In this document: piece by piece, positions 1-41,416 of the stretch
Layout of the letters: every line of letters starts with the position of its first letter
How positions within the stretch are numbered: the first letter of the stretch is position 1
NCBI GenBank assembly: GCA_002633005.1
Contig: NMRA01000251.1
Coordinates: 446,636 to 510,635 of the forward strand
Length of the DNA stretch: 64,000 bases
Direction: 5' to 3'
Source: Phoronis australis
Lineage: Eukaryota; Animalia; Phoronida
Translations under genes and position numbers: made by a program
Notes under the pieces: generated by a model
Databases searched by the model: none
Told to the model about the DNA's origin: nothing
The model's input: the letters and a program-made list of their open reading frames with translations, nothing else

Positions 1-200
1 CTACGCGTTCCGAGTACGAGGTAAGATTAACCGCCCAGGGCGGTTGCCTGTCGTAATAAGCGCCCATGTTCGGTTAACCGCCCACCCTGGATTTCTTGAA
101 ATTTCACGTTTAAGCGCCCATGTCTGGTTAACCGCCCACCCCCGATTTTTTGAGTTTGCCAATTTAACCGCCCAGGGCGTTAACCCGAACGATTACGGTA
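1..200. mobile_element. Right end of a non-autonomous DNA transposon (TA-CCGTAA terminus, pogo/Tigger-like)
   Basis: Repeated subterminal TAA(C/G)CGCCCA motifs ending in TTACGGTA; related to the ends of the 19011-21957 element. Confidence 0.6.
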
Positions 201-2152
201 AATGCCAAATATATGTATAAAATCGTTACTATGATCTTGATTTTTTGGCATTTTTTCGTGTGACTTGTGACAAGCACGGCACCTTCTTTCATTTGGTCAC
301 TTTCCCTCCAATAAATAAAAATGTGGTCCAAGTATCGAAAAACCCAGGCAGCAGTTATGGTGGACTTCAAATTTGCAAATTTCGTAAAAACTGACCAACA
401 CGTTGTGGAAAAATAAGCCCGAGAATCTTGACCCTATCGTGAAATCATTAGCCAAGAAAAACGGTTTTGAAGTTAAGCAGGCGTCGCTTGCCACTTGCAT
501 CAAAGTTCGTTCAGAATGCGCGGTAATAATGTTCTGATTTCTGTTAATGTTATAGAAATAAAGATGATGTTTACTTTATGGTTAGAAAATATGACATACC
601 TGTTTGTATACAGTGTAATTTCAATCATTTTTGCAAACTTGTGAATCACCACATAAGACCACAACAAATATGGCTGACACGTGGGCAGAGGCTCTTCTGG
701 GGAAGGCAAGTCCACACGCTGTCCATTCCGAACTGTGGCCTCAAACGTTTCCCTGTTGTAAGGTATAGGTGCTGTGGTATTGTCAGTGATGTTTTTTGCA
801 GTTTTCATAAAATAAAAGTTTATTGTATTCTCATTGACATCTTGTGATTTCTTCAGAGTTGCAAAAGGTTGACAAAACAGTTTTGGAAAAAGGCAGCACA
901 CATTGGATACAGCGTACTTTTGAGTTTACTAAACAGGAATTAGCGCACGACTTCCATTAATGCTGCCGCATACTGAAAACAAACTTGCTCTTTTTATTAG
1001 CGAGAACATTTTGTGTATTTACGGGTTATTTGCTGAATAATGCCTCCCACTCCCCAGCATATCTGAACCCTACTCTATTGTTTGAAGTTGAACTTTAAAG
1101 CAATAGTGATAAATCGCAACAGAAAAGGCCTAATATTTGTGAGGCACACTCGTGAAACTTGTACATGCGAATAACATCACAGTCTGATACAAATTATTAT
1201 TTCTCACGGTGGGTTTATCGACGTTGTCACTAAAATGGAAGGATGAGGACGGAGAAAAAACAAAATAACTGCTCGCCACCAAGTTAGCTTGGTAAAAAGG
1301 AATTCCTGAATGTTCCAGTGGGTTTTTGCTTGTACAGATTTTTAACATATTTTATTTTTCACAAAACAGCCAAAATACCAGGGCGGTAATAGAAAGATGT
1401 AAGTGGGAATTATTTTTCCAGAAATTTTTTTTTACAAAATCAGGACGACAAATCGTTAACTTACTTGGTAAGTTTTAAAAGAAATTGCCTGGGGTGAGTG
1501 TTTGGAGCACATGACCCAAGACTGTCATGGTTCCAGGAATGGGAGCACATCCATTCAGTTGGTTATGAATAGCAAAAAATACGCCATTTCATCACAAGGT
1601 AGGGCCAAATTTAATCTCTGAACAACGACTAATCTCGTAGTAGACTAGCACCACTTCTATAAAAATCTATGGAGTAGGCCTATATAATTTAATAAAAAAT
1701 CAGTTGATTAGTTTTAAAAATTTCAGTTGATCCATTCTTGTTGTTTTATTTACTTATATATAATAAACAGGAAAGGTAGAATATAATGTTATCGTGTACA
1801 AAAAGTTATGACATCCAGCACAAAAAGCATCCCTCTTTACTGCACCTCACGACATACCCGTAAACCACAAATGCTAAACCATGCAGTTACTCAGACACGC
1901 GGAATTTGTTGTAAATGATGTCTTTCTCAATACTACATGGCAGAAAATAATTGAAATCTCAATGCAAATTGAGAGACAAAATGGTCAACACATACATAAT
2001 AGGACCTCAATGTATTCTAATTGCGAGGTCAGCTATGATTAAAATCTCACCTGATCATTAAATTAGATTTGATTATAAAATTTAATTAGTTATAACAGGG
2101 ATATTTTGAAGTTAATCAGTCATTTCCATGGTTTTCATGTTAACGGCATGAG

Positions 2153-2372
2153 GGAAAGTCCCTTGAACAAGATTTAAAAAAAAAACAATTGGGCAACGAA
2201 TGACTTTCCAGGACATTGTCATAGAAATATTAATTTTAATTGGTAAATCTGACAATAGTTTACAAGGATATGGTCCCAGTTGGTTACTAGTAGCTCAAAA
2301 GGAAAACGCCAAATAGACATTAAACTGTTCAAAGAAAAATTATATAGTAATAAATGACTCAGGGAAATTTCC
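2153..2372. promoter_or_regulatory. Candidate NF-kB sites (2153-2162, 2362-2372) and adjacent AP-1 site (2355-2361)
   Basis: GGAAAGTCCC is the reverse complement of canonical GGGACTTTCC; TGACTCA is immediately followed by GGGAAATTTCC; 330-550 bp upstream of the gene 1 ATG. Confidence 0.45.
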
Positions 2373-2702
2373 TGAAATAATGAATGCATAAAAGACAATA
2401 GGCATTCAAAGACTGAAAATGTCTGGATAGCCTTTAGAAAGTTATCAAAAGAATTCCACGCTTCAATTTACCTGGGCACAAGTTAAATATGATTATAAAG
2501 CTTAAACAAACAAAACGATATGTACCCTTTTCAGTTACTGATAAAAGAACATGTGACGTAGCAAAAATTCCTGGCTGTAAAATCAAGACAGTCTCAGCGT
2601 GTCAGCTTCCATAGGTGCTGAGAAAAAGATAGGGGGGGAATACTTGGGGCAAAATGTAACAAACGACTCAGAAATCTCACGTGGAGACCACTAGGTGACA
2701 AC

Positions 2703-2849
2703 ATGCCTCGGCAGATGACAAGACGGCACCAACAAGTACTAAACAAGCACATGACATTCCTGCAAGAGAATGTGATCCTTGTTGGAACTTTCTACGGCAG
2801 TCTGGTGGAGAAGGAGGTCCTTAGTGATGAAATGATTGAGAAGATTAAG
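2703..2849 (+). CDS. CARD-coiled-coil gene 1, coding exon 1 (CARD N-half)
   Basis: ATG at 2703; 49 codons MPRQMTRRHQQVLNKHMTFLQENVILVGTFYGSLVEKEVLSDEMIEKIK, then donor AAG|GTAGGA (phase 0). The pattern resembles helices 1-3 of RAIDD/caspase-2 CARDs. Confidence 0.85.
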
Positions 2850-4154
2850 GTAGGATAGATAATGGTGTACACGAAGGAGTGACTAGGGAACATACAGTGA
2901 AAGGGACTTACACCGTGTAAACTGTTAAAATGGTCATTTTTATTACTTTTCAGTAACTCTCTTGTTGCTACAAAAGTTCAACCTGTTTCCAGGTATTGTC
3001 ATGTTGAGTTGCACTGTACACAATTTGGGAAAGGAAGAAAATGGTTCTATTAGTGTTTCTTGTTGAGAAACTTCAAGCGTGAAAGTAAAATTCAACTCGT
3101 GTACCTTATTGTGTTCCAAAATAAAACAACTTTACTATCTGGATACAGTCACATAGACACAAGATGAAGATTCTTGGGAATGTAGTACTGTAGAGTGTAA
3201 GGAATGATGGCAAGCAGCAATCTAAACATTTAAAGTTAAAATTAAAATCATGCAATTATAATAAATAATTATTGTGAACACTAAGCCACACCAGCTTGCC
3301 AAGTGTTTTAGTTAGACCAGACAATCAGACAGCCTGAAAGAACCAATAAGTAAATTAGAAAACAATAAAACAAAATACTGATGCAACACAAAACAGTACA
3401 GGTACTAAATCTTGCCTTGTCACACTGTAGAAATAAACATGAAGGTGTCTAATCCCAGCAAACAAAGTGAATATCCATGTAAGATGAACTATAACAAATA
3501 TTTGTACAATAAAGTTGTTGACTTTGCAATAGATTTATGGAAGACTTGACCTTCAGTTGCACAATGTTGCACCCCACCATTGTGTCTATTTAAATATAAA
3601 TCACACTGATCCAGCAATGGTACTTTGTTAGCATAGAAATCTAGGTGTAAAAGGATTTGTGATGAACTAAAAATGTAGTTTCTCACACATCAGCAGAAAA
3701 CGATTTGCTTGTAAACTGACTTAAAATCACTTTCAGCTCATAAGAAGAAAAATGTCTATAGTATTTCATGAATATGTTTTACATTCTGAACTATTTTTGA
3801 AACTTAACAGCATCACTTAATGGGTCCACCCAGATGAATCAGAACAAAACATGACTCCATTGTGACCCTTGGCCTTCTTAGAAGACACCGGCATGACTTC
3901 TGAGAGCAAATGATAAGGAATAGCCTATCGTTCCAAGTTAACACTTAGGGTGCCTAGATGTTAGACGACTAAAAAATCAGGGGATGGAGTTGAAGCCAAG
4001 CATGCACATTTAAAAACAAAATTTTTAAGTAGAAGGTGGGAGTAGGTGGGCCCAAATGGTCTACTCTCCAGCACTCATTAGTTATTTAGTATTCAGTATT
4101 ATTACTAATTCATCAGATACAGAGGTCTTTACCCGTATTTCCCAACTATTTTAG

Positions 4155-4311
4155 GCTGAGAAAACCACAAGTGACAAGATCCTAAGGCTAATCACTCTCC
4201 TCAAGTCATGTGGACCAGATGCATTTGACAAGTTTGTAGCCACTTGTGAGAGCACGGGTCAGACACACATCTCAGAGACGCTGCAGACCGCCGACATTGA
4301 ATCACTCGAAG
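4155..4311 (+). CDS. CARD-coiled-coil gene 1, exon 2 (CARD C-half)
   Basis: Acceptor TTTTAG|; AEKTTSDKILRLITLLKSCGPDAFDKFVATCESTGQTHISETLQTADIESLE contains the CARD motif LL..xGP.AF..F; donor G|GTAAGC (phase 1). Confidence 0.88.
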
Positions 4312-4923
4312 GTAAGCATGTGAGAGACACGTTGTCATGATTTGCTCAACATTGCATGAACTTGCCTACAAATCATTTTATGACAATTACATATGAGGGG
4401 GCACATAGTACTACCAGATGTAAAATGCCTTATTACTGACGTGAAGCCAATGCCATTGTTTAAAGACAATAAATATGCCTAATGGTTGTATTCAACTGTT
4501 CTCAATTAACTAGGCCCTAGTATGGTTGTATTCACTGGCAGTTTGCCATCGCATTTCATGCAACAAGCTTCGAGACCAGATAATTTTACACAAATACATG
4601 AATAATGCGATAATTCATTAGTAATACTTGTGTATCAGATAAACAAGTTTTCCGAACTTATTTCAAAGCAAAAACAAACAAACACATTTAGATGACAATT
4701 GTATAGACACAGGATCTCTTCATCATCACAAGTATTCCATTGATGGCATACTTTTGAAGATGAACAGTGTCGTTAATTTTTCAATATGCAATAATAGAAT
4801 TAACAGATATTGATCCACTGTAACATATATGGAACTTGAACAACATCTTATCATATTTTGCAACACACATAGATCCATTGTCACATGTGGATCCTAATCA
4901 ACGTCTTGTCTTATTTTCCCCAG

Positions 4924-5077
4924 ACGTTCCCTATGACAAATCTCGACAAGTGGAAGAAGTGATTGAGAAGACCCTTGGACAGAGAGTGATGAAGACCATT
5001 GGAATGCAGCAGATATCAGAGCTGGTGAAACATCTTGTACTGAAGGCCGACTTTGAAAAGGAGAGGGAGGAAAATAG
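4924..5077 (+). CDS. CARD-coiled-coil gene 1, exon 3
   Basis: Acceptor TTCCCCAG|; DVPYDKSRQVEEVIEKTLGQRVMKTIGMQQISELVKHLVLKADFEKEREEN; donor AG|GTAGCT (phase 1 to 2); homologous to gene 2 exon 3. Confidence 0.85.
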
Positions 5078-5721
5078 GTAGCTCATCGCAACAATACGTG
5101 AAATAATAATATCAATAAGTTTTAAAAGCTTTCATGCTTGGATAAAATTCCCTGTAACAGCCTACAGCGAAGTTAGACTTGACTCATTCGTTGAAGTGAA
5201 AGTAGAAGCTACATCCTTGATTGGTGCATTGTGAAAACAATAAACAGAAGGGATTGCAAATTGTAGAGGTTTCTGGGATCGCTTGGGGTTCAAATAATAT
5301 CCCTAAATTTCCAACGGATATGTGGATTTGTGCAAACACTGATGGTCTTTTCTTCTTCTGTTCTATCCAAATCACTACGACCAAAAGTCAACTTTTTAAA
5401 CTCTTCATTGAATTCTCAACATCATAGAAAATAAACAGGAACTTTTTTAACACAGAATTCAGAATTTAAGGACTACGACACACAAATGATTTTCAATAAA
5501 ATAAGGAATCAGTTTTCAGATATATTATCAGAAAATGTTATCAGCAAAACAGGTTTTGATAGAGCTAGCATGCTATAAAAAATAATATTAGTCCGCAAAT
5601 ACACAGAAGATTCAGGGAAAGTTATGGAGTTCTGCGAGAGTAAACTACATTTTGAACATTTATTGTTATTGAAAATAAAGAAGGAACTTCTCAAGGAAGG
5701 TCCCTAATTTAAGGACTCAAG

Positions 5722-5954
5722 GCAAAAATTCTTCAGTTTGGGGCACAATAAGGTACACAGGTGAAATTTTATTTTTCTAAATTTCTCAACAAAAAGTAAC
5801 TTTACCTGTAGCAAGGTTTGTATGGCTTAGCTTTTAACAAATAACAATTGATAAAATATTGACCATATGCAACAATGTGGTATGTCTTGGATAAATACAA
5901 AACATGACAATTTAAACTCTCAAATTTGTCCCAAACTGAAGATTTTTTACTGTA
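5722..5954. mobile_element. MITE of about 240 bp, copy 1
   Basis: TIR TTCTTCAGTTTGGGGCACA ... TGTCCCAAACTGAAGA; second copy at 7830-8078. Confidence 0.65.
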
Positions 5955-6177
5955 ATCCCGAAATATTTTCATTGAGAATAAGTGATTTTTCAGATATATT
6001 AGGACATGTCATAAGTAAAATAGCTCACAATAAAGATAAGGTGACAGAAAAATACAATACCATGTATTAGAGAATAGACAAATTGTACAAATGCTTTGAA
6101 AATTCTTAAGTTAAAGTCTCCATGAGGAGCCACTGTCCCTTATAAAAAGAATAACTAATTCTCAAATTTCGTTTCAG

Positions 6178-7456
6178 AATCCTGGCACAAGAAATCAAAG
6201 AAAACCTGGAAGATGTGGAAAAGCACAAGATAGAGTTGAAAGATGCCAACAGCAAATTGAAAAATGTTTTACGCTTGAATAAAAACCAAAAGGAGGAGAT
6301 AAACAAATACAAAGACCAGCTAGAAGACCTGTTGATGAAGAGAGAGGAGCCAGTGCCACCTATTGAGACAATGGAAACTAATGATGTGGGAAATACAAGC
6401 AAACTGGAGGAGGAACTGACAACAAAGAACCAACAAATCCAAGAGCTTGAAGACAGGCTGCAAAGTCAAGGCCAGGAGTTCTATGTCATGAAAGGCAAGC
6501 TACTCACTCAGATATCTGAAAGGAACCAGGCCATAGAGCAAGTCAATAAGCAGATGGCATATTTATGCGTGACTGAGACCCCAGGTGATGGTTGCCACGA
6601 CAACAACAACAACAAGAAAAGGAAAGAAGAGAGTAGACAGGTGATGCTTCTTCAAATGAATGTTGACTTCGTGATGAAGAAAATTGAGCGTATACAACGG
6701 GATTTGTTGAAGGCTAACGCAGATATTATCAACCTTCGTGAAGATGAAAAGAATTGTCTCCAATTACTCCACGTTGAACCAACGAAAGAACAAAATACAA
6801 CACTATTGGCTTATCTCAAAAGCTTCCTGTCGGAGAACGAATTGGAACTAGAAAGACAGCGCATACACATTGAAGATCTAAAAGAAAAGCTTATCAGTGC
6901 ACGGAAAACCAAGTCTCTTCTACAGAGAGAGCTGGAGACAATAAAATTTGATAAAGCGCTCATGAAACGTAACCTGCAGTTCCTAAAAGAACAAATGACC
7001 AAGCTGACCAATCCATCCAGCGGAAGTCCAACGACACATCGTAGCCACAGTGGCGGCAGCAACCGAACAGACGACAGCATGGTATCACTACCAAGTCTTC
7101 CAGGAGCTCAACGTCACTACCGTCATCCGGCACTACGTCGGACTGAGACAGAACCGGGAGAGTTAACACAGGGTATCCGCGGCACCTCACTAAAGAGGAA
7201 AGTACGCCATCTATCTATCAACGACTCACTTTTCCCGCTACAACAGCGAACAGTGTGTGTTATGTGTCAGTCTGCCTTCAAGATGGAGGACAATCATGAC
7301 AGCGCCTGCCGTTTTCATGACAACGTTTATGTTAAACAGGAGAGTGATAAAACAGCACGGTGGCAGTGCTGTTTCAAGACGTCGCCAAAAGCAACAGGCT
7401 GCCAAGTGGGCAGGCATCGGCTACGACAAGCCAGAAGCTTGGAAATAAACACATGA
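6178..7456 (+). CDS. CARD-coiled-coil gene 1, terminal exon: coiled coil, Ser-rich linker, CHORD/Btk-like zinc module (spliced CDS 1737 nt, 578 aa)
   Basis: Acceptor TTTCAG| in phase with ORF 6215..7456; long E/K/L/Q heptad-rich region; C-terminus has C-x2-C-x13-C-x2-H-x16-CC-x9-C-x4-H. Confidence 0.9.
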
Positions 7457-7513
7457 ATAGCTGACCAGATCAATGGGAAAATGGCCGACTTTATATCTTA
7501 GTGCTAGTCAGAT

Positions 7514-7665: not shown

Positions 7666-7829
7666 ACGAGTGCCAAAGTTAAGTCTAACCCAATAAGTGT
7701 TATTAAATTATTGCAACTTTTTTGTCACAAAACTAATGTGACGAGAAGCCAAATCAGACTTCGAGAAAGAAATCTGCATTAAAAATATACACTACAAATT
7801 TACCAAAATAGTGTTTCTTGACATCCATG

Positions 7830-9675: not shown

Positions 9676-12600
9676 GTAAAAAAGGTTCCTCAACAAGATA
9701 CTTCTACATTATGTAGTCACCAATGACACCCAGACTGATAAGATGTCGGAAAATCAAAGGTCTTGCAGTCCCTTCTAAAATTTGATGCCTTCAACTAGAT
9801 CATGGATTATCTAAGTAAACATTCAAATCTATACTAGTCTAGCCTACTAGAAAGGTAAAGATAGGCCTTTTCCAGGGGCTTACCATCAGAAAATCCCTTT
9901 TAAGCACAGCACCACTGATACAAGCACATATGTAGCACTGCGGGTTAATTCCACAAAATTAGTGCTGTTAGTGGCATCATGGGAAGAAACTGGTACAGTT
10001 AACAAAAACTATTTTATCACAAGTAGCCAGGCTTAGATTAGGGATTTTCCAAAGCATAACATGGAAATAGCATTTACAAACTAACAACACCAAGACGTAG
10101 GCTTAAGGCAGGGTGGTCTCTTAGGACATCAAAGGAATTCTGGTGACAGCAACATATTAAAGAGATTTCAATAGCCTCCTTCTTACAAAGTAGTTATTCC
10201 TACCAGATTAGATTTATAGCATTAGAAACACTTAAGTCCTGTTAAGACATCAATTTATGGGCCAGCGCAACTGACATGGAGCAAATTGATCAGTGTCAAG
10301 CGGCCATTAACACACCCAACTCACTAACTATGGCAAGACGGAAGTTGTAGGTTGGAGAGTGGAATGCACATGTGCAGGTTTAAAACTGGCGGGAGTTGCA
10401 AAGACAGAGAACCCGTATGTAGGTCATTGCACAAGTACAGTAGAGATGATCCCTTCCACCTAGCCCCAGTTTCGAGTTTAGACATATAATTTGACACGGA
10501 ACAAGACGGTCACCGCGGTATCAATTTGGTCCAAGTCAGTCCTGTTTAAAGACATACTTGGGCTAGAATATCTCGTGTCAGCTGATTGCTGCCAACTATT
10601 GTAGTGTAAACGGCACTTAAGAGTAGGCTCTGCAGGTGTTCAGGCTGAGTGGGGTATAATTTGTAAATGCAAATTATGAGTTGTGTTCGTCAGGTTCAAG
10701 GTATTAAAAGTGCAAATTCTATAAGAATTTCTAGCACTACCAAAAACAGAATGCATACTGGTTTTGAGGCTAAAAACGTATCAAAGTCAGTGACTCAAAA
10801 ACGAGATTGAGGACATAAAAACATGGCAAGCCTAATGAAGTACCATATTCGCCCTAATAAGCACCCATGCCCCTATAAGTGCCCCCACGTGTTTTCAGTG
10901 TGGACTCTATCCAGCCAGTCAGCCAGCTGCCAGCCAATACTCAGCTCTAAAAACTTGAAGGGTTGGTTAGTTACCGACTATAGCTGTATGAAGACTATCG
11001 TACCACTGTATGTTGAGATCCGTTAGCCCCGAAATTTCAGACAGCCGTTGACTTAACCCGGGTATAGTTGATTTATGCTCGTCACCCCATCATAAAACTT
11101 AGGCTACCTCAACATATAAAGCTAAAAGACCAGCGGGGGCGCAAGCAAAATCTGGTATTCACCGACACTCACATTGTTCGTTGCAGCCGTTTAAGTGGAA
11201 AACAATCAAATAAACGTCATTTGGTAGCATATTGCCGCCTTTTGTAATAAAGAAGTGGGTCGTCCGTTTCAAAAACAGTACGCTCATAAGACACGGCGCA
11301 CGTGCCATTTCCTAAAAATTTGAAATGTCTTTCGGGACACGATGACAGCTTCGCGGCACCAAGGTTATTCTAAAATTCGTTTTTCTGGTATAAAAATACT
11401 AAAAACTTGTAACGAAATTGAACAAGTTCCGATAATTTGTTGTAACATATAGGCAACCTAGGTACCGGCAGCGACGAACACTTGATGAAAGAATCGAGGA
11501 AAAGAAACTGGTAAATGTCAGGTGACGTAATCGCAAAAAGCCGACTCAAGAGAACACATCACAATTTTAGCAGCAGCCGATGAACGATCGCTAACTTTTC
11601 CAACACTGGTAAATACTGAAGTTAGTTCTAGGAGCCTGGTTCCTAGGTTTACTCAAGGATGAGATTAGTTTGAATGGCATTAATTTTGGGTTAGATTTTA
11701 TTTGTCCATTTTTTACCCATATCGGCTCAAACCTGTAGAACTATATTTAGTATACAGCTTTGGGCCAAGGCTTGGGTAACCCGGCGATGGTTACCATGAC
11801 CATCCCTTTAGAAGACAACTTTTTCGAAGAGTTTGAGCAATCAGGTGCCATTCAAAAAGGTATAGCAAACCTTTTACAGCACTGTAGCAAACAATAAAAA
11901 TAAGGACGATTGATACAATGACATAAGCAATGAATGTGTAAAGCAGCCGATACCCTGCCATTCACGTCACTGACACATCAGCCAATCAGCGATCGCTTTC
12001 AGGATTCAGTGTTTTAACTATGAATACGAGTCGGCTTTTGTTTGGCACGCAAGTGAGTTTTGTTTGTATGTTAGAACCAATTAACTGCAACATTATTTTG
12101 AATACAGTCCCCTTTTAAAGAAAAGGTCGTTTCCAGAAACTCATTCAAGGCATTGCATCGGATATCCCTGGTAATCTGCACATCTATGTACAGAATAATG
12201 CCCCATAATTAAGCTTTCAAAGTATGTTATGGGGCAATGATAGCCTTTTGCGTCACCATTTTTCGGATACCAGGAATCAAGGATGTGCCCCAACTATTAA
12301 GACTATTCGCATTGAACAAATTCTCAGTCACTGACAACACAAAATTGCATTACCGTAAAAAGGTGCTGGGAAAAACCTAATCAAATGTATCATGTCAGTA
12401 GAGATTGATAAATCACAGCATTATCGTACGTGAGATTTGAATCATAAGTCTAGTTAGGGTCCATGAATCTGTTGCAAGCCAGATAAAATGGCCTACAGAA
12501 GCCACTACGTTGAACAAGGAAGAGCATTCCTTGACTGACAAGGAAGAAAGTCATCGCCGATCAATTTATGGTAAGATGATTGTGACAGTTAAAAGTATAA

Positions 12601-14372: not shown

Positions 14373-14632
14373 TTAAAAACAATTCCAAACAGCATTCAGA
14401 ATTCAATGCAGTGAGTAAACGATGTGTGTTGGTTCGGTACAGCTGAATAAAAGGAACAAATTTTCAAAAATTTGAACACTACTAGGAACATGATTAAATA
14501 CAAGAAAACTTATCTGTAAAATACTGTTGGAATTGCAGACAAGACATTCTAGCAAACGGTGAAACCATCACAGCCAACTTGAACACAGCAAGAAGATGGA
14601 CGATGCAAAAACCAGCTGAACAAGGGGCAGCC

Positions 14633-14776
14633 ATGTCTTCAAAGCAAAGGCGACAGAAGACTTTGCTTTTGAAAAAATTACCTGAGCTCTACCAGGATTT
14701 GGTTGTTGGATATATGCTTCCCGCAAAACTACATGCAACAGGAGCTCTTGATATAGAAGCGCTCGAAAGCATACAG
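14633..14776 (+). CDS. CARD-coiled-coil gene 2, coding exon 1 (divergent CARD N-half)
   Basis: GCAGCCATG Kozak context (an upstream in-frame ATG also exists at 14603); MSSKQRRQKTLLLKKLPELYQDLVVGYMLPAKLHATGALDIEALESIQ; donor CAG|GTACTT phase 0; similar size to gene 1 exon 1. Confidence 0.75.
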
Positions 14777-15768: not shown

Positions 15769-16009
15769 CAGTGGCAGATCTACATTTTCAGTAAGGGGGG
15801 TTTAGGATTTTGAGCGAATCCGAGGCGCGTAGCGCTGAGCAGAAGGAAGGTTGGGAGGGAGACCCCTCCCGTGTAAGATTTTTTGTGGTTTTTAGTAGCT
15901 GATTTCGTTTTTCTGGCAAAATTTTTTTCAATTTTGATTTTTGATCCTGTCCCAAGGGGGGGGGGGGTTTGAACCCCTTAACCCCCACCCCCCCGTAGAT
16001 CTGTCTCTG
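15769..16009. mobile_element. hAT-like MITE
   Basis: TIR CAGTGGCAGATCTA ... TAGATCTGTCTCTG; similar end at 20813-20826; no clear TSD. Confidence 0.5.
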
Positions 16010-16921: not shown

Positions 16922-17069
16922 AATGAAAACGAGAACAGAAGGAAGATATGGATAATGATAAAGAGTATGCAAGGTCCAAACGTTTTAGACACGTTTATTC
17001 AGGCACTTCAAGACACAAATCCGTTCGTGACCGAGATGTTACAGAAAGCTAATAGAAAGTCACTAGAAG
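16922..17069 (+). CDS. CARD-coiled-coil gene 2, exon 2 (CARD C-half)
   Basis: Acceptor TTGCAG|; NENENRRKIWIMIKSMQGPNVLDTFIQALQDTNPFVTEMLQKANRKSLE; donor G|GTTAGT phase 1; aligns to gene 1 exon 2 and both end in SLE. Confidence 0.8.
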
Positions 17070-17963
17070 GTTAGTCCTCGACAGTCAGTTCACAATATTT
17101 GATTTGCAAGCTCTAGGAAACAGCAGTAAAATAGATTTCTTTCCTTTTCAATTTACTACAATGTTAGTTGGTAATTGGAGGACAACCTTAGTTCTAAAAG
17201 GAACTGAACATGAAATCAATGTTCCACCTGAATTCCGACTCCATGATGCAAGCCTTTTGTTGGGCAGTTTACAATCAGTGCTGCTTGGATGGTGAATACA
17301 CACCTGGGGAACACTAATTAACACGGAAAATGTTCTTTGCAAAAATTCAACATAAAAATGGTTGCTTTAGTTTTAAAAGCAAAGCCCAGGCAGGCACTTC
17401 TACAAACTGTTGGGTTAAGATCATGCAAAAAGTCTGATGTTGTCCAACTTCTGAACATCATATCTCAGAAATAGCTCATTGGATTCACATGAAACTTTCA
17501 GATACTATGCTGTTGTACAAAATGCGGTTAAAAGAATTGTCTTTAAAATGTTCCACTTTTGCATGCAAAATAGAAGCTTATAAAATGAGTTGCATAAAAT
17601 CAAAATGGAATGATTAATTAAAAAAACTGTTAGTAACAACGTTTTTGAGATTTTATCTTGAATAATTGTATCATATAAAGTTTGGTCATGTTATTGGTCC
17701 TGTTGTTTTACTATGAATGTACCTTAACTTTTTTACTAAATTCCCTAAAAAGTAAGGTCACATGACCTAACTCGTGGCGCATTGGTATAATCTGTTTGCT
17801 GAGTAAAATAGTTTTGTAAATATTTGTCTAAATGTATAAACTTGTGCATAAGGTCCAGCATAACTTTAATGACCATTCAAATCGACTATTTTACAAAGTT
17901 AGGAATTAAAGCTAGGCAGAATTTGTGGGTTGCAGGCAAGCACGTTGTCTGCATTTCAGGAAG

Positions 17964-18030
17964 TACCGTCTTATCTTGATGTTGGCTCATTTCAGCAACT
18001 GAAATGAGCCAACATCAAGATAAGACGGTA
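17964..18030. repeat. Perfect palindrome: 32-bp arms with a 3-nt loop
   Basis: TACCGTCTTATCTTGATGTTGGCTCATTTCAG-CAA-CTGAAATGAGCCAACATCAAGATAAGACGGTA. Confidence 0.95.
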
Positions 18031-18462
18031 GTTTAAATTAAGGTTGGACATATAACAGAGCATGGGCTGTCAAAGGTGAAAATTTGGAAAATTGAGGTGT
18101 GAGAATGGAGTGAAGCATGGCTGTTTATCATTAACAACAAGGAGCAGATTGGAGGACTCCATATTTAACATACTGTTAATTGTCCACTGATTTTATCAGT
18201 AAACTCCTATTTTAGACACATTTGGCAACACTGATAATATCAGGAACAGCAAATCTTCAATTATTTTGAACATATCAAAAATGTTCTTACCCATAATGTT
18301 GATGAGAAATTTTCTCAGTTTCTTTCAATATACAATTATCAAAAACTGGATACTTTTTGAAATGCAACAGCAGTCAGGTTTTAAGATTTTATTTTAGATA
18401 AATAATAGCCATTAAAGCGAACGTAGTCAGGCGTGACTGGTTTCACTTTTGCATCCTGGCAG

Positions 18463-18601
18463 ACCTGTATCCATATGAGAAAGGCACCGAAGTAGCTGAA
18501 TTACTGGACGATGTCAAGACTTTGACTGAAGAGGAGAAGGACAAACTAATACACCATCTTGCACTGAAGGCTGACTTAAACAAAGAGAAAGAAGAGAATA
18601 A
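18463..18601 (+). CDS. CARD-coiled-coil gene 2, exon 3
   Basis: DLYPYEKGTEVAELLDDVKTLTEEEKDKLIHHLALKADLNKEKEEN; donor AA|GTAAGA phase 2; matches gene 1 LVKHLVLKADFEKEREEN. Confidence 0.85.
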
Positions 18602-19010
18602 GTAAGATCTGAAAATTATGTCCATGTTATTCAAGTGGCACTCACATCTTGTAACAAACTAATCGTCAACTGAAAACATTCAACAAAACAGACACCAGGT
18701 CACAGAATTGACATCTAGATCTTGCGCTCTGTAATCCCCAAGCCATCATAATTGTCACAGAATGCGAGTCGAACACTGCACAAGTGTGGGTCTACTAAAC
18801 AGCAGAGTTCAATAAGATGACATCACAAAAACTGCAGCAGAGCACACAGGTAGATCAAAGTTGTTTCTATGTAAGTAAGCCTTGTCTTCAATATAACTGT
18901 CCTCGAGTTTCTAGGCACCATTCTCTTTGATTTCAAGTCAATGTGAGGAAAACAATAAAATTTCCATCACAAAACCTAACTTCTGATCTAGCCCACTCAC
19001 CAGTATGAAG

Positions 19011-21957
19011 TACCGTAAACTCGCCGGTTAATGTCCATGCCCATGTAATCGTCCATCCCCGATTTTTGGTCAACTTTCGGTTTAAGCGTCCACTGCTTGG
19101 GTAATCGCCCATCCCCTACTTTGTGCTAATTTCCATGTAAGCATCCACCTCTCGGGTAATCGCCCATCCCCAACTTACCGTTTACAGAACTTGCACTTGA
19201 ACTCGTGCTTTTGTTCACAGCTTCGCCTCGGCCTCAGACTTCCGTGTGTGCAGAAATACGGCATGCTTACGCCTGTGTACAATTGTCTCGAAAAGTGTGT
19301 TTTGCAGCTGGCGTTTGTGAAATAATTCAAGCACTGCAACCACCTTTTTTAAACTTATCAACTGATCTTTTGTTAAATTAATATAGGCCTACTCCGTAGA
19401 TTTTTATAGAAGTGACGCTAGCCTACTACAAGATTAGCGTATGACGTCCTGGTCGTCATTGATGTAGGTTTGTCTAGGTGACAGGTTTTCGAATTACCTA
19501 GTCTAAATTTTCTTTTATCAGACACGCAGCATTCTTGGCACACCTTCGTCTGCGTTTCCAAGCCACCATTTTACCCGACAAACCACACGCAGTCGAGTAA
19601 AACTTACTTTAGTCTATAGCTCAAGAAATTGTCTGCTAAGAATGGAGAAACGGTGTTGATATGGTGTGTGTAGCACCGACAGTCGTTATGCTGCTCCAGA
19701 ATAATATCCCGTCATTTTATGGCATGTCCTAAGCCAAAAAATGATGTTGAAAAGCGTAAACTATGGATCAAACTGTACGGCCACACGAGCAGCTGAACTT
19801 AGCGATGTTGCTTGATAACTCGAAGGCTATAATAAACACAAACATATTAGTTCCAAGATACGCACTTTTCAGCTTGGTGGCTATGGTACAGGACTATCTC
19901 AGATTTTGACTCCCGAGTTTCCTACGTCTGGCCGCCTTGGTCTCGGCACCTGCTGGATCTTAGCACTCTAGTGGTAGTCCCCGGAAATTGTTGTTTTCAA
20001 GGACATTTTTATTTTATGTTTTTTTATTTATTTCAACCTAATGGACATTATTTTGTTTCGTATCAGAGGTACATTTTTGTTATTCATAAACCATAGGCTG
20101 GCATTCAACTGAACTTCTCTCCCGGTCAAAATTCAGAGATTCGATCGGCACAGGGAAGGGCACTGGATTACTGCCGCAACTCAAAGCCTTGGTCGAGCTG
20201 TTGTCACTAAAAATAAACTGTTGAATTACTTTTTGACGTGTACCTCTAGTATACACTATGTCTGTAGAGTTAGAGAGAGCTCATTTTGAAGTTATTCAAA
20301 CATGATATTTAGATTTATGAAGTTTTGAAAAAGAATTTGAGTTATTTTTGTAAATACTCTATTTTTGTAACTACCACACCAGACTTGTAATCTTTTGTAA
20401 CCATACCACGACTAAGTGATAATGCTACCTTCAAAATTAAATGAAAGCTACCTTTATACAATGAAACTACAAAAAAATGTCAAGTTCATAAGCAGGTAGG
20501 CCTAACTTAAATGTCTTAATGGTGCAAACCAACAATTCCATAGGTTGCCGCAAGCAAAATGAAACAGAAAGAGCGTGAAGCCTGAGGAAATATTGAGTTC
20601 AGTAACTAGGACCGGTAGCGGAAGAGGAGGGGGCTCAGACCACAGATCGCGGCGGAATTGTGTTCCTGTTTTTTTTAGTCCACCGATAGATTTTCTAAAT
20701 TGAGGTCCAAAGGCCTACATCCCTGGCCCTTGAAACTTTCAGGCCGCCTGTGCACATACAATCGCACTTTGCCCAATTCCACGAGGCAACATATGTGGTA
20801 CCTGTGGTATCCTAGATCCGCCACTGAATTCCAGACATTAATTTGACTTAGACACAGCCCTAGACCTACCGAAGCTAACTGTTTGCCTACGACTAGATGA
20901 GTGTGTACCTGAGCTATGAACCTGAATTTTTTGATCAAAATATTTCGTTACAAGATTAAAAAAGCATAAACAGTGCTATCGAGTTGACCTAGTCAGAGAC
21001 TATAGTGCATGTGTTGTCTGTAATATATGACCTACTTTACTCCAGGAGTCCTACCAGTTGTGACCTACTTTTCATTTGGCGAAATTTAGCAGAAGACAGA
21101 ATAAAAATATCGGTGAATCTTCACTGATTTTATTCGAAAGATCATGAAATCCCATATCATGAACGTACAATTCTCTGTTGAAAAGCAGCGCCTCTTGTCT
21201 CTGTCGAAGCGTTTTCAAATAGTGCAAAAAACACTCATCGATTCCACCAGGAATGTCGTTTAGCGACAATGTATTTGCCTCTGACATCTCATTCGATTGT
21301 CAGGTATCACGTGACTTTTCGCACAGGGGCAGAGCTTGCGATAGGTCAATTGCAAACGTTTAGTGTCGGTCAGGAACAAACAGTCCATGTTTTTAATCCA
21401 GCAACAGATAAACTAAACAGTGAATCAAAAGTATATCGCGTTTAATATGCAGATGACATAAACAACTATGAGATGGGACCTGAAGGGTTCCAACAAAACA
21501 CAATCATACGAACAACACTTACAATACAATGGCGCTGGAAACGACATGTAGTCCCGTTCACTGATCTGAAACGGTGCTCGCTGATACAGTAAGTAGACTG
21601 CCATGCAAGTTTCATAAAGCTCTGTGGCACAACATTTTGCAGCACGCTAATATATTTGAAAACATCGTACTTTATAACAACGTTCTCGCGAAATCACCCT
21701 TTCAAAGTTGAAATCCTGTTTCTGTTTGAGCCGTGAGAAACTTTGTGGTTGTCGGGTTCCACTGTTTGACCAAGCTTACCAGTTTCATGCTCGAATAAAC
21801 AACCCGTGAGCTTTCCCAGTTCGGCTAAAACTTGGACGTAAGCGGCCACTGCTTGAGTAATTGCTCACCCCCGACTTTTTGCCAATTTTTTCGGTTTAAG
21901 CGCCCACTTCTTGGGTAATTGCCCACCCCTCNNNNNNNNNNNCCCCCCATCTCAGGG
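19011..21957. mobile_element. Composite non-autonomous DNA transposon of about 2.9 kb in gene 2 intron 3
   Basis: Left end TACCGTAAACTCGCCGGTTAA; partial right end TTAACCTGTGAGTT; TAATCGCCCA-type subterminal repeats at both ends; N gap at 21932-21942. Confidence 0.55.
19642..19857 (+). pseudogene. Degenerate THAP-domain fragment (transposon-derived)
   Basis: MEKRC*YGVCSTDSRY ... PKPK..VEKRKLWIKLYG..HEQLN ... NKHKHISSK, with stops and frameshifts. Confidence 0.55.
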
Positions 21958-22290
21958 TTTCCCAATTTAAGCGACCTGGGTCTTAACCTGTGAGTTCCTC
22001 ATTCAAATTACAGATGATTTCAGGGCTTGACAAGAACTGACAGTTCTTTACTGCTGATGACCAGGATCTACAAGTAGTAGACTTGTCACGGCATGTCATT
22101 TTAGTTATGCGCCGGCCATGGTCTCAAGGAAAAGTTGAATTGTTAGATCTCTGGAAACCCAAAAAGTCACTTCTAGTCTGAGTAAAAGAACAAGTTGCAA
22201 GAGTGGCAAATGGTCTATATCAAAGATTCACTTCATACATTATGTTTAAGACTTCCTTAAGAGTAACGATGAACAACATCCTTATTACAG

Positions 22291-22608
22291 GTACTTGCAA
22301 CAAGAAATAGAACGCCTAAGATCTAATAGTGATGATCCTAACCACAAAAAGGTAGAAAACTTGGCAGTAGTAGGTGAAGATGAGGTACCTAAAGAGGATG
22401 TGTCGACCAGAACAACAGAGTCAAGTGAAACACTGAATGACCAACATAGGGAACTTGAACAGATTACTAGCGACCTAAAAGAATTAGTCGACAAAATAAA
22501 CTACATGGCAATACAGATACTTCGTCAACCAACAGATAACCTTAGCAGCCCTCCTGAAATCCTGAATCTGTTGGAGCAAAAGTTTCAGGGTCAAGGTGTC
22601 ACTGATAG
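22291..22608 (+). CDS. CARD-coiled-coil gene 2, exon 4 (coiled coil)
   Basis: Acceptor TTACAG|; (K)YLQQEIERLR... versus gene 1 (R)ILAQEIKENL; donor AG|GTGGGT phase 2; in frame with ORF 22295..22630. Confidence 0.78.
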
Positions 22609-22910
22609 GTGGGTGTACCAAGTTGACTAACAAAATAATAATCTAACAAGATGAAAGTTATGTAAGGCACTTTGTGTTGTAAAAATAAGACACTTGACCA
22701 TTTGTGCTAAATATAAACAGAATTTCTTTAAGTAGTGCACCACTGAATATCAAGTTATAGCGGTGCTTTGGTGACATAAAATCCTTAAATAACATCTGAT
22801 TTGAAACTTACTAAAAAATTAACAACTACAATAATTATTGTACCTGAGTACAGCTATTTAGTAACCACAGATCACAAAATTATTTTTGCCATGCATTGCT
22901 TTATTTTCAG

Positions 22911-24219
22911 ATTTCCAACTCAAGATCACCAATATTCCTGTGAGAGAAAAATAAGTGAACTGCAGCAAGAAATACAAAGATATCAGCAACAAATTGAAAA
23001 ATTAGAAAAAGACGCTGAAGATCGGCATGACATGGAGGCTACACTCAGAACCTGCACAGAAGAAAGGGACAAGAAAATTTATGATCTTCAAGGTACGGTC
23101 AAAGAGAATGATCAAATGAAAACAAAGTTGAACAGTCTCAGAGAAAGCAGGATGGAATGCATGGATTTGTTCTGTGAAGATTCAGAACAAAAGCAAACAC
23201 TGCAGCTATACATTACAGAACATAACTACCCACCAAGACAGATCACCGCAGAAATCAGGAAAACACTGTACATTACAAAACATGGATACCTTCCAAAACA
23301 GACAACCACAGAAATGAACAACAGCCAAAGACAACATTTCAACAATGACACAGTACACCTCTCGTACAATCAAGGATGTCAGAGTCTACAGCAAGATGAC
23401 AGTGAAAGTGGGTTACAAGAGCAAATAAGGCAGGAACCTCACAACCAATATAGAGCAGCTACAACACTGAGATCAAAAGCTCCTCCAAAACAAAGCCTGG
23501 GAGAACCAAATGTTGCAAATGAAGGGAGTTGCAGAGGACGACCTGCCAGCTCAGTACATCTTGCACTGCAGAACTCTGAAGAATTCCAACACGGTAGCAA
23601 TTCAAGGATCAGAACAGCATGTCCCAACCAACAGACTTCAGGAAAAAATATAACTGAAGGCAGCAACCGTAGTTACAACCACGACAACAACACTCAACAG
23701 CAAAGCTCAAGGAAAGTCATGGCTCACAGCAATGGCTGCAGCATGTTTCCAGAAATCAGTCCACGATCTTCCTCGCAACAAAGATCCAGCAAACACGAAG
23801 GCAGGAACAGGGAGGACAGTGTAAGGATGTCACAAACAGCAAGCTATTCTCCACACCAGAAAGGGAATAATGAAGTGTCTCAGCTTCCCATAGACCGTGT
23901 CACGCCAAAGAGTTCTGCCAATAGCAAAGGACTGTATAATGAGGATGTCCATCCACAAGCCCTTGTGCACCACACCAAACAACAGATCACAAAATCAGCT
24001 AAAAATATAAGGGGTCAAGAAACCATGAAAGTCAGCAACCTCTCCAACAAAACCCAGCTACCCATGCCATTAAATAATATCAAAACGACAAACAGTAACC
24101 TTAGTACAACAAAATCGACAAGAACAAGACAAGATCCTCATAAGATGAAGGTACAAAGGCAAAGAACTGGGAAATCAAACGCTGTGAAAAGAACCAAGAA
24201 TCAGTATGGAATCGGATGA
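22911..24219 (+). CDS. CARD-coiled-coil gene 2, terminal exon: coiled coil then Q/S/N/T-rich low-complexity tail (spliced CDS about 685 aa)
   Basis: Acceptor TTTTCAG| in phase with ORF 22801..24219; LRESRMECMDLF..EQKQTLQLYI aligns with gene 1 LREDEKNCLQLL..EQNTTLLAYL. Confidence 0.82.
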
Positions 24220-24799
24220 GAGCTACGAAGACTTCTGGTATGGGAGGCTTTATACTCTTAGTTTGTGACCTTGGTAGAAGACAAAAGTCCAACATATAAG
24301 GCACAACCTTGTCGACAGACATGGGGTAGAGTTACAGCTTAGCATCCTGCACAGGATTCAGTGTTAAGTGACTGTGGTTTGTATTGAATCACTAACAACT
24401 TCCCTTGGCACTGCAGTTACTGGGTGTATACAGGTGTGTTTCAAATAATATGCTGAGATTTTTTACAGGAATGCATCCAGAAAACTCAGTTTATAGCAGG
24501 CTGGTTAATTCTATTGACTTGGATGGTTGTATAGCCATTTATTTTGTGAAATTTTAATTATTGCCCATGGGTGTGTCATTTCCTTAGCACGACCCACTGA
24601 AACACTGAATACTAGACTCAATCATAGAGCCCTGAAAATTACTTGTAAAGACCTTACTACCATGTGTTCTGACCACCTTCCAACACTAGAATTTCATAGG
24701 ATTAGCAAACATGAGTTTGAAGTCTGTAAAAACATTGAGTTATATTACGTGTTGACAAGGTGTCCTTTCCACATGAATCAGTCTTTCAGCAGACCTTAA

Positions 24800-25200
24800 A
24801 GACAGCGTCCAGCGGATAAAACACCTTTTTGACACTAGAAATGTAAGTATTGTTCTTGCTTCTTACATACCACAGAAATTAATTAATTCCAATGCAAATT
24901 ACACTGCTCATAATTCGTAACCCCTTCGAGCGCCCCAGAAAAAATCTCAACCAATCAGCGTAAAGTGGCTCTTATGACATCATCGTGGCCATGATAATTA
25001 CTGGGAAGCCACACTGCGTAACAGCTGAGTGCTATTTCTTGGACGTTCTGTACTTGTTTATCTCTGGGCTAAAATGCCTCTTTGCGTGATGTGCGAGTGT
25101 AGAAATGTCAGCGACAATGGGATACATTTGCACAAATTCCCCACCGATCACGTCATGTGCCGTGCGTGGAATAGATTCGTATCCACGACAAGGACTGGCG
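24800..25200 (+). mobile_element. Kolobok-like element left end with truncated THAP ORF (25074-25193)
   Basis: TTAA|AGACAGCG terminus; MPLCVMCECRNVSDNGIHLHKFPTDHVMCRAWNRFVSTTR has the THAP C-x4-C, LHxFP and W pattern but lacks the CxxHF end. Confidence 0.55.
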
Positions 25201-27298
25201 ACAAACTTTCCCTATCGGCAAGATCTGTTTTGGGCTTGGTGCAGAGCTGTATACAAAATCTACAGCTTCGCGTTGATGTGGGTAAAAATGACTAAATAAA
25301 ATCTGACTCAGAAATAGTGTCATTAAAAGCTGCACCACTCTTTGAGTAAACCAAATTATTTACCACTGTTAGAAGAATTACTGTTCTACTGCTCATCTAC
25401 TGCTAAAATTGAGGTGCGCTCTTGTGTGTCGGCCTTTTGCGATTACGTCACCTGACCTGAACAGTTTCCACCCGGTTTATTCTTCTATCAACTGTTCTTT
25501 GCTGCCACGAGGTTGCGTACTGTCACAACAAATTGTAGGAACTGGTTTCATTTCGTTACAAGTTATTAGCATTTTTAAGACCATTAAACTGAATTTAGAA
25601 CAAACTTTACTGCTGCGAAGCTGCCATCATGTCCCAAAAGAAGTCGCAAAATTTTAGTACGGCGCGTGCCACGAGCGTATTGTTTTCACAGCGACGAAGA
25701 CTTTCTTTGTTACACAACTCAAAAGGCGCTGAGTACATGCTAGAAAATGATGTTTATTAGACTGTTCTTCCCGTAAACGACTGGCAATGGGCAAGGTGAG
25801 TGTCCGAATTGTCTCCCAGATTTTGCATGCACCCCGGCCGTTGGTCGTTGGCTCTGCTGTATAAGTTTCACGGCGAGGTGACTAACACAACTCATACCCG
25901 GCCAGTATGAGATTTATTCTATAGTCTATGGTTTAACAGAGCCCAATTCACAGTGTTACCTTGCTGTATTTTGGTGATAGTCTTCAAGCAGCTATCTGGC
26001 TGGCTACAAAAAAAATCGGCAGTGTGCACTTCGACATTTCAGGTTACTGTTCCGGCCCAGAGTATAAGGAATCCGGCCCAAATCCGGAATTTTCCGTCTG
26101 ATTTGGCTCCTTCCCGTAGGCCTAACAGAATTCTGATACTGAATTTAAAACATTTAAAAAAAGTTCAATTGGTTACAAATTCTTCCAATTAGGTATGTTT
26201 TCATGCAATCCAGACTTTATTTCATAGTTTTAATTTATCACAGACACCCACAATCTTGTGTTGCTATTAAATTTTCAATTTTTTTAGGATGACCGAGTCA
26301 AAATGGCGGCGATTAGGCTACAGGTTGTAGCATTTCAAGGCGACTTATTTTGAAAATTGAGTTTCTGATATCAAGTTTTCAATGAACTTGATTATAATTG
26401 CGTTGTACAAAAAGATCAAGCTGACGTGTTGTAACGTTTCCAAGTATTTTGCACCAAATTAAACAGCCTATTGTCGCCTATACCAATACGGAAACACACA
26501 CTCGACAGCCGCCCGCAGGCCTATTGGAATCGCGCAGCGTTCACACCTTCAGCTTCAAAAAGACATGAATGCAAAGCTCCTAACATTATTCGTGGTAACA
26601 ATGATGTCATAGACTTCGCTTGGCGCAAGCGTCGTCTCAAGTTTTTTTTGGCGCTAAATGGGGTTCGTGATGGGGCTACTGTCGAAGGCCTACTTAATGA
26701 ATGACTGAGGTATGCTATGACACATTATTTTGATGTTTTTCGTCAATAAATGTATTTTAGATGTAAAAATAGTCATTTTGGCACCATACTTGGCCTTTAA
26801 GGAGTGTTTATCCAAATGTCCTCCAGTTTTTATTGCAGGACTAGACCTCCATACCTACTACCTAGTTGATTTGATTTGGTGTTCACTTATTTATTTGTTT
26901 GTGCATTTTCTCCATCCTTATTTCAAAGTCAGTAAAATGAGTCCATGGTTCATGTTTACTATACCGACTAGCACAAAATATTATCTTGATACAATCACTG
27001 GCACAGAGAACTGTAACAAGCATCTGACATGATGCAAGTTACATATTGGAATGACTTCCTCCTAGACCAATTGGACATTAAGGTTAACAAGCTCAGTTTG
27101 GTCAGCATTTTTACCCATAGCAGAGGACAAAATGAGTGCCAGTAACTGCGAGTGCTCTGCTTATAATTTGTCGATAATATATCGAATTCTTGTTTGGTTA
27201 AATTGCTGCTCATTTTAAACAACAAAACACAGTGGCATTAGAATAACTTACTTTGAATCATTGACCACCTGTGACGTATGTTGTGACTTCAGCCTTAC

Positions 27299-41408: not shown

Positions 41409-41416
41409 CTGTGAAC

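What the first reader, a model, noticed from the sequence alone, without database searches (positions are those of the whole stretch)
1..27298. Two CARD-coiled-coil paralogs appear nested antisense in a >27 kb intron that splits the PKD kinase domain
Seen: PRKD exons run down the minus strand to ...KYLISQ|GTAAGG at 27299. The next expected exons (HCDLKPEN catalytic loop, DFG, activation loop) were not found by eye in 1-27298. That interval instead holds two complete plus-strand genes. Other PRKD introns seen here are under about 8.3 kb. Established: PKD signals to NF-kB, and PKC-family kinases activate CARD9/CARMA scaffolds by phosphorylation. Inference: a host kinase with nested CARD adaptors, possibly co-regulated or subject to antisense interference. 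This is the best candidate for an undescribed system in the window.
Basis: partly seen in the sequence, partly recalled or inferred. Interest (0 to 1): 0.78.

Follow-up and report, generated by a model that had tools for sequence, protein, structure and literature searches.

The report
Ancient CARD genes inside kinase intron
In a marine-invertebrate-type genome, the protein kinase D message is spliced across a stretch of more than 27 kb that holds two opposite-strand CARD genes; one has a relative apparently next to the same kinase in a brachiopod, and it likely encodes an undescribed cell-death-type adaptor whose link to the kinase is untested.

Summary
Thirteen PRKD exons end at 27299. No C-lobe exon lies anywhere in the window, and in three RNA runs 21 reads leave at 27299 straight into the catalytic-loop exon, with none running into the intron. 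So PRKD is intact and the interval is very probably one intron of more than 27 kb. Two plus-strand four-exon CARD genes lie in it (same phases 0,1,2). Gene 1 is CARD, long coiled coil, then a CHORD-like zinc module. Gene 2 shares only the first 153 residues and was almost silent where PRKD was expressed. New: gene 1's best relative is the Lingula protein with the next accession after the PRKD isoforms, on a scaffold of the same length, so the linkage looks ancient. The CARD9/CARMA analogy is weak: the family's CARD ranks with caspase-9, Apaf-1 and RAIDD, and a published screen saw no PRKD activation of CBM signalling. All three orthologs keep an aligned PKD-consensus site, a testable lead only. 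Verdict: a real nested arrangement, common as architecture, holding an apparently undescribed adaptor family; functional coupling to PKD is not shown.

The parts
27299..58035 (-). PRKD (protein kinase D) host gene, 13 coding exons: 58035-57897, 56929-56798, 48501-48341, 47771-47549, 41408-41334, 39242-39083 (or 39218-39083), 38229-38106, 36785-36708, 35495-35243, 34023-33910, 33289-33183, 31915-31859, 27403-27299. The first coding exon and the C-lobe exons were not found in the window.
27299..27403 (-). Last PRKD exon in the window; spliced in RNA to the catalytic-loop exon, which is not in the window
   Evidence: 21 loose-end reads in 3 RNA runs, both edges sharp
1..27298 (-). PRKD intron of more than 27.3 kb; its acceptor lies left of the window (inferred)
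2703..2849 (+). Gene 1 exon 1, first half of CARD (phase 0)
   Evidence: Pfam CARD positions 2-40, E 0.014
4155..4311 (+). Gene 1 exon 2, second half of CARD (phase 1)
   Evidence: Pfam CARD positions 42-83, E 2.5e-4
4924..5077 (+). Gene 1 exon 3, helical segment leading into the coiled coil (phase 2)
6178..7456 (+). Gene 1 exon 4: long predicted coiled coil, linker, CHORD-like zinc module, stop
7133..7156 (+). Aligned L-x-[RK]-x-x-[ST]-x-P site in the gene 1 linker (aa 472-479); PKD-type consensus, predicted only
   Evidence: consensus from PMC3262827
7199..7219 (+). Second aligned basophilic site, [RK]-x-R-H-x-S-hydrophobic (aa 494-500)
7256..7418 (+). CHORD-like / Btk-motif Cys-His module (C513, C516, H526, C530, H533, W548, C550, C551, C561, H566)
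14603..14776 (+). Gene 2 exon 1, first half of CARD (phase 0)
   Evidence: no Pfam hit alone
16922..17069 (+). Gene 2 exon 2, second half of CARD (phase 1)
   Evidence: Pfam CARD positions 42-84, E 5.3e-4
18463..18601 (+). Gene 2 exon 3, paralogous to gene 1 exon 3 (phase 2)
   Evidence: 38% identity over 50 aa
21932..21942 (.). 11-N assembly gap in gene 2 intron 3, at the repeats of a roughly 2.9-kb mobile-element-like insert that starts at 19011
22911..24219 (+). Gene 2 exon 4: short coil, then a long S/N/Q/T-rich tail; no zinc module, no aligned PKD-type site; near-zero RNA

Best explanation
PRKD is intact and splices over the whole interval, and the two opposite-strand CARD genes inside it are likely an ancient nested adaptor gene plus a later partial duplicate, likely kept in place by physical entanglement rather than by a pathway shared with the kinase. 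Gene 1 likely works as a death-fold adaptor: its caspase-9/Apaf-1/RAIDD-like CARD would bind a CARD caspase or CRADD, its coiled coil would cluster the CARDs, and phosphorylation of two conserved basophilic linker sites (by PKD or another kinase with a similar consensus, with 14-3-3 docking) would gate it. Shown: exon structures, the PRKD splice, domain order, aligned motifs. Inferred: conserved neighbourhood in Lingula (from accession order and scaffold length), physical position of the C-lobe exons, every protein interaction and phosphorylation.
For: Splice from 27299 into the catalytic-loop exon in 3 of 3 raw RNA runs. C-lobe absent from the window with working controls. Gene 1's best hit among 1.84 billion representatives is Lingula XP_013409868.1 (E 7.8e-37, 34%); Lingula PRKD isoforms are XP_013409859-865 and 867, and both lie on a contig of 327,119 nt. 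A full-length annelid ortholog (Owenia CAH1792893.1) has CARD plus coil, 25% over 547 aa. CARD ranking. Long helices at pLDDT about 80 in the Owenia model. Linker motifs align in 3 of 3 orthologs. Nesting is common: 17% of human and 12% of mouse genes host a nested gene, preferentially in the largest intron, and about a third of testable pairs are conserved between mouse and human (bioRxiv 2023.05.02.539096, section heading and section 6).
Against: No read or contig links the window to the C-lobe exons at DNA level, and there is a gap at 21932. Accession adjacency shows neighbourhood, not nesting, and rests on my recall of how RefSeq numbers are assigned. The Lingula model lacks the CARD (it starts at gene 1 aa 250) and the Owenia protein lacks the zinc module, so the full architecture is seen only here. 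CARD-subtype tests were run on the Owenia protein or a 5-row alignment led by it; gene 1's own CARD halves gave no CARD hit in the PDB. MDA5 (Z 14.0) and CED-4 score about as well as Apaf-1, so fold does not name the partner. The motif was defined after seeing the alignment, and such a match occurs somewhere in 2-5% of shuffles of each protein. Retention over such a long time could itself reflect shared regulation.
Confidence: 0.55

Rival explanations
1. Functional host-guest module: PKD phosphorylates the product of its own nested gene at T477, which recruits 14-3-3 and gates CARD assembly; nesting is kept because the two share regulation.
For: An L-x-[RK]-x-x-[ST]-x-P site aligns in gene 1, Lingula and Owenia, with L472 and P479 among 12 invariant positions of an 86-residue linker. 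The PKD consensus is LXRXXS (PMC3262827). Linkage appears ancient.
Against: Only gene 1 has R at -3; the other two have K. Other CaMK-group kinases share this consensus (recalled). The motif is post hoc and absent from gene 2. There are no co-expression data for gene 1.
Confidence: 0.17
2. One reading: these are CARD9/CARMA-type scaffolds activated by PKC/PKD to signal through BCL10-MALT1 to NF-kB.
For: Same gross order of CARD, coiled coil and linker with basophilic sites. Invertebrate CARD-CCs exist in annelids and molluscs (PMC5978004 section 5). CARD9 is a structural match at Z 11.0.
Against: CARD9 ranks 21-22 and BCL10 26, about 5 Z units below caspase-9. RAIDD and caspase-9 are the top sequence hits. 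PRKD clones did not drive CBM signalling in a human-cell screen (data not shown in the paper). Gene 1 ends in a CHORD-like module.
Confidence: 0.1
3. Not a single giant intron: the C-lobe exons hide in the 11-N gap, or the scaffold is misjoined in the repeat-rich 24.6-26.7 kb stretch, so gene 1 is a convergent neighbour rather than nested.
For: The gap at 21932-21942 sits in repeats. High-copy repeats lie between gene 2 and PRKD. The same scaffold carries a probable allelic duplication at 42.9-51.7 kb. Lingula adjacency fits a neighbour as well as a nested gene.
Against: Gene 2's exon 3 and exon 4 phases match across the gap and mirror gene 1. There is no N between 21943 and 27299. About 230 codons plus introns would have to fit in a gap sized at 11. 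A misjoin would not by chance place PRKD beside the ortholog of its Lingula neighbour.
Confidence: 0.12
4. Gene 2 is a decaying or chimeric partial duplicate and not a working paralog; only gene 1 is functional.
For: RNA depth on exon 4 is 0 in X6 and X7 and at most 0.45 per strand in X5, against 5-14 on the PRKD exon. No significant similarity to gene 1 past aa 153.
Against: It has a 589-aa open frame, intact GT-AG sites and conserved phases. Only three samples of unknown tissue were read, at 18-19% each. This rival is compatible with the best explanation.
Confidence: 0.25

Closest known systems
CARD-CC scaffolds (CARD9, CARD10/11/14 and invertebrate CARD-CC; PMC5978004)
   Same: N-terminal CARD, long coiled coil, linker with basophilic kinase sites
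   Different: The CARD ranks nearer caspase-9, Apaf-1 and RAIDD than CARD9; gene 1 ends in a CHORD-like module; BCL10 binding is untested
CRADD/RAIDD and Apaf-1 (activators of CARD caspases)
   Same: Best sequence hit of the CARD is RAIDD; best folds are caspase-9 and Apaf-1 CARDs
   Different: No death domain, NB-ARC or WD40 was found; clustering would have to come from the coiled coil
CHORD proteins (RAR1, CHORDC1) and the Btk motif
   Same: Cys/His spacing and W-x-CC; PDB hits RAR1 E 0.0017 and CHORDC1 E 0.0027
   Different: One copy only, below the Pfam BTK cut-off (17.6-18.9 against 24 bits), no CS domain, fused to CARD and coil
Ordinary host/nested gene pairs (bioRxiv 2023.05.02.539096)
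   Same: Nested genes fully inside the host's largest intron, on the opposite strand
   Different: Apparent retention between this animal and a brachiopod whose PRKD is only 63-65% identical; the guest carries a site matching the host kinase's consensus
Lingula XP_013409868.1 (labelled 'interaptin') and Owenia CAH1792893.1 (unnamed)
   Same: Probable orthologs of gene 1: coil register, both linker motifs; zinc module in Lingula, CARD in Owenia
   Different: Each lacks one end in its record; no paper in the library cites either accession

Membership tests
Nested gene pair | Host transcript is spliced across the interval | tested here: met
   21 reads in 3 runs go from 27299 to the catalytic-loop exon; that exon is absent from the window
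Nested gene pair | Downstream host exon is physically linked beyond the guest genes | not testable with these tools
   no genome held; indirect support from Lingula accessions
Nested gene pair | Guest genes are transcribed | tested here: inconclusive
CARD-CC (CARD9/CARMA) | N-terminal CARD | tested here: met
   Pfam CARD halves on exons 1 and 2; Owenia ortholog 30.8 bits over a cut-off of 23.9; model pLDDT 83.6, Z up to 15.8
CARD-CC (CARD9/CARMA) | Long coiled coil after the CARD | tested here: met
   gene 1 and orthologs by a simple heptad score and the Owenia model; gene 2 has only a short coil
CARD-CC (CARD9/CARMA) | CARD9-type CARD is the nearest known CARD | tested here: not met
   on the Owenia ortholog: CARD9 Z 11.0 (rmsd 2.3, 88 aligned) against caspase-9 Z 15.8 (rmsd 1.4, 92 aligned); top sequence hits RAIDD and caspase-9
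CARD-CC (CARD9/CARMA) | Groups with invertebrate CARD-CCs in a tree; LATCH region | not tested
CARD-CC (CARD9/CARMA) | Recruits BCL10-MALT1 after PKC phosphorylation | not testable with these tools
   needs experiments
CRADD/RAIDD | CARD followed by a death domain | tested here: not met
   exons 3 and 4 of both genes give no death-domain hit and read as coil and linker
Apaf-1/CED-4 | NB-ARC ATPase after the CARD | tested here: not met
   no such hit in any exon; the region is coiled coil
CHORD proteins (RAR1/CHORDC1) | CHORD-type Cys/His zinc ligands | tested here: met
   conserved in Lingula
CHORD proteins (RAR1/CHORDC1) | Tandem CHORD domains (recalled as defining) | tested here: not met
   one module only
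Protein kinase D | C1a, C1b, PH and CaMK-type kinase in order, with an intact catalytic loop | tested here: met
   the first 10 residues of the catalytic-loop exon are seen in RNA only

The most novel reading that the evidence does not exclude
Gene 1 is the missing oligomerising activator for CARD caspases in lophotrochozoan groups reported to lack both APAF-1 and PIDD (PMC11463336): a CARD-coiled coil-CHORD scaffold, switched by phosphorylation from the kinase whose intron has housed it since the split from brachiopods.
Probability: 0.08. Interest if true: 0.88.

Novelty: new variant of a known kind. Interest (0 to 1): 0.5.

Why it matters
Nesting alone is ordinary. What matters is the guest: a CARD-coiled coil-CHORD-like protein with relatives in a brachiopod and an annelid that I could not find described. 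PMC11463336 reports no APAF-1 in molluscs, annelids or Lingula and no PIDD in lophotrochozoans, which leaves open what clusters their CARD caspases; this family is a concrete candidate. The aligned PKD-type site makes a host-phosphorylates-guest link testable with one kinase assay.

Tried and rejected
No genome was held, so adjacent sequence could not be read. Word-indexed homolog searches with the PH exon and with gene 1 exon 4 found nothing; the full HMMER search did. Pfam on the 150 longest of 309 N-free minus-strand frames of 28 aa or more in 1-27298 gave no kinase hit; the other 159 were covered only by the profile and tblastn searches. The run search with gene 1 listed no RNA holder, which is no evidence on expression. 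CARD9, CARD11 and BCL10 were not listed to E 10 in the PDB sequence searches, which does not exclude them. Gene 1's single CARD exons found no PDB CARD. The full-length Owenia model had a poor CARD and was not fold-searched. ESM Atlas hits were all under 0.9. The metagenome scan found no relative. Owenia PRKD was not among the named hits nor in the look-up of 9 unnamed ones, so linkage there is untested. A coiled-coil dimer prediction was not run. Of one search's 7 hits I dropped P0122 (fibronectin repeats, taken as spurious) and used P0123 and P0125-127 only as zinc-module matches. The 126-codon frame at 22250 was considered as a third paralog and rejected: no clear similarity and about 1 frame that long is expected per shuffle. 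Earlier scan findings: none in 3 look-ups. My notebook's remark that the 8.3-kb intron is inflated by the duplication is wrong: removing one copy shortens the 6.1-kb intron to about 1.7 kb and leaves 8.3 kb.
Full report
1. Host gene. The C1a exon finds PRKD proteins, best Lingula anatina. Thirteen minus-strand exons from 58035 to 27299 join without a stop into 576 aa, 63% identical to Lingula PRKD 48-645. Among the stored full-length proteins the five best matches are Lingula isoforms at 63-65%, so the animal is probably a lophotrochozoan but not Lingula. The 12 introns are 569 to 8,296 nt. The first coding exon was not found.

2. The C-lobe is not in the window. No DFG occurs in any frame of 1-27298. 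A profile of 95 C-lobes scores best E 4.1 among 4,043 frames; the N-lobe control finds its 4 exons at E 1e-10 to 1e-19. Seven of 7 planted pieces of 15-34 aa are recovered, six at E 2e-11 or better and the 15-mer at E 0.0013. The 10-residue junction peptide has no match with 3 or fewer mismatches.

3. PRKD is intact. In raw RNA runs X5, X6 and X7 (18-19% of each read, one study) the exon 27299-27403 has depth 5-14, all with the first mate on the plus strand, as expected for a minus-strand RNA. Five, 6 and 10 reads leave at 27299 with the same 30 letters, which translate ILVALKHLHS, and depth just inside the intron is 0. That matches the Lingula PRKD residues that follow the junction. Truncation is refuted, and so is a C-lobe exon at 24.3-27.3 kb. 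The DNA link from the window to those exons is not shown.

4. The two guest genes. Gene 1 (2703-7456, 578 aa) and gene 2 (14603-24219, 589 aa) each have four GT-AG exons with phases 0,1,2. Pfam CARD halves fall on exons 1 and 2 of gene 1 and exon 2 of gene 2, each under the cut-off because the domain is split. The genes are 31% identical over 153 aa; beyond that 6 of 300 shuffles reach the score. Gene 1 continues as a long coil, a linker and a Cys/His module that matches RAR1 and CHORDC1 CHORD domains (E 0.002-0.003) and weakly the Btk motif. Gene 2 has a short coil and a low-complexity tail. Its last exon had depth 0 in X6 and X7 and at most 0.45 per strand in X5.

5. Conserved neighbourhood. 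A full HMMER search with gene 1 exon 4 gave 7 hits. The best is Lingula XP_013409868.1 (E 7.8e-37). Lingula's PRKD isoforms carry XP_013409859-865 and 867, and all are on a contig of 327,119 nt. I infer that they are neighbours, from recall that such numbers run along a scaffold; 866 is unaccounted for, and nesting in Lingula is not shown. The Lingula model starts at gene 1 aa 250 and has no CARD. Owenia CAH1792893.1 aligns over 547 aa at 25%, has a CARD above the Pfam cut-off and lacks the zinc module. Its position relative to PRKD could not be checked.

6. What kind of CARD. With the Owenia CARD alone and with a 5-row alignment that adds the window's four CARD exons, the PDB hits are RAIDD and caspase-9. 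A model from that alignment (pLDDT 83.6) ranks Apaf-1 and caspase-9 first in Foldseek, none at E under 0.001. In the wide structural search it gives caspase-9 Z 15.8, Apaf-1 14.5, MDA5 14.0, a CED-4/CED-3 complex chain 13.8, CARD9 11.0, RAIDD 10.5 and BCL10 10.2. It is a CARD, and CARD9 is not its nearest type; the fold does not name a partner.

7. A possible kinase link. An L-x-[RK]-x-x-[ST]-x-P site aligns in 3 of 3 orthologs, and so does a second basophilic site. The first fits the PKD consensus LXRXXS (PMC3262827) and, from recall, a 14-3-3 docking pattern. Only gene 1 has the arginine. The pattern was chosen after seeing the alignment, occurs somewhere in 2-5% of shuffles per protein, is shared by other kinases (recalled) and is absent from gene 2.

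8. Assembly. An 11-N gap lies at 21932-21942, in 55-nt repeats at the right end of a roughly 2.9-kb insert. Gene 2's phases match across it. One contig of DNA run X1 covers 22487-24634 with no differences, but that run may be the source data. A 4.4-kb tandem copy at 42876-47281 and 47283-51707, 94-99% identical with a single N at the junction, is probably two alleles placed in series. I put the chance that the interval is not one intron at about 12%.

9. Context. Nested genes are common in mammals and favour the largest intron. PMC11463336 found no APAF-1 in molluscs, annelids or Lingula and no PIDD in lophotrochozoans, while CRADD and CARD caspases are present. I did not test this for the window's animal. 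Searches for a nested gene in PRKD, nested microsynteny with Lingula, CARD with a Btk motif or CHORD and the accessions returned no listing that describes this locus or family; the library lacks most subscription papers.

10. What I saw of each paper. PMC5978004: passages, section 5 and one short supplement text, no figures, so its invertebrate CARD-CC list was not seen. bioRxiv 2023.03.06.531260, PMC3262827, bioRxiv 228767 and bioRxiv 046789: passages; their supplements were not seen. bioRxiv 2023.05.02.539096: abstract, headings and section 6. PMC11463336: passages, section 7 and a supplement term search. All other papers: search listings only.

11. Verdict. The arrangement is real and probably old. 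As architecture it is ordinary. The guest family appears undescribed, is not a CARD9/CARMA member on the tests I could run, and most likely works as a coiled-coil adaptor for CARD caspases or CRADD. Coupling to PKD is a testable lead, not a finding. Interest 0.5.

Noticed in passing
window 31609-31626, minus strand: An 18-nt PRKD microexon (ag...gt, 6 codons) between the exons ending 31859 and starting 27403. It is included in the one X8 contig and skipped in X5 and X7 reads. Two of 105 stored PRKDs, from Tubulanus and Nucella, have an insertion at the same place in the kinase N-lobe.
   Followed up: partly
window 42876-47281 and 47283-51707: A 4.4-kb tandem copy with two PRKD exons (161 and 223 nt; 4 and 2 differences), single N at the junction; probably two alleles. 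If real, the 384 extra nt keep frame and would add a third C1 domain. Not tested with reads.
   Followed up: partly
window 22250-22627, plus strand: A 126-codon coil-like frame in gene 2 intron 3, with a possible phase-1 acceptor at 22251 and phase-2 donor at 22609, so it could replace exon 3. Its length is within chance.
   Followed up: partly
window 19011-21931, also 1-200: A mobile-element-like insert with a TACCGTA end and 55-nt subterminal repeats; the assembly gap falls in its right-hand repeats, and a right end of the same family lies at 92-200.
   Followed up: partly
window 25029-25295, plus strand: A THAP-domain fragment (Pfam E 4e-4, under cut-off) in a repeat-rich stretch; a related repeat lies inverted at 11312-11576.
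   Followed up: no
window 37414-38135: A 74-nt minisatellite of about 10 copies whose unit resembles the end of the adjacent PRKD PH-domain exon and its donor site.
   Followed up: no
window 39083-39242, minus strand: Two in-frame acceptors 24 nt apart (39242 and 39218) for one PRKD exon; both give an open frame.
   Followed up: no
window 23190-23320, plus strand: Gene 2 exon 4 has a short internal duplication of about 20 residues, seen by eye in the translation.
   Followed up: no
window 2535: A good splice acceptor 168 nt upstream of gene 1's ATG suggests a non-coding first exon further left.
   Followed up: no
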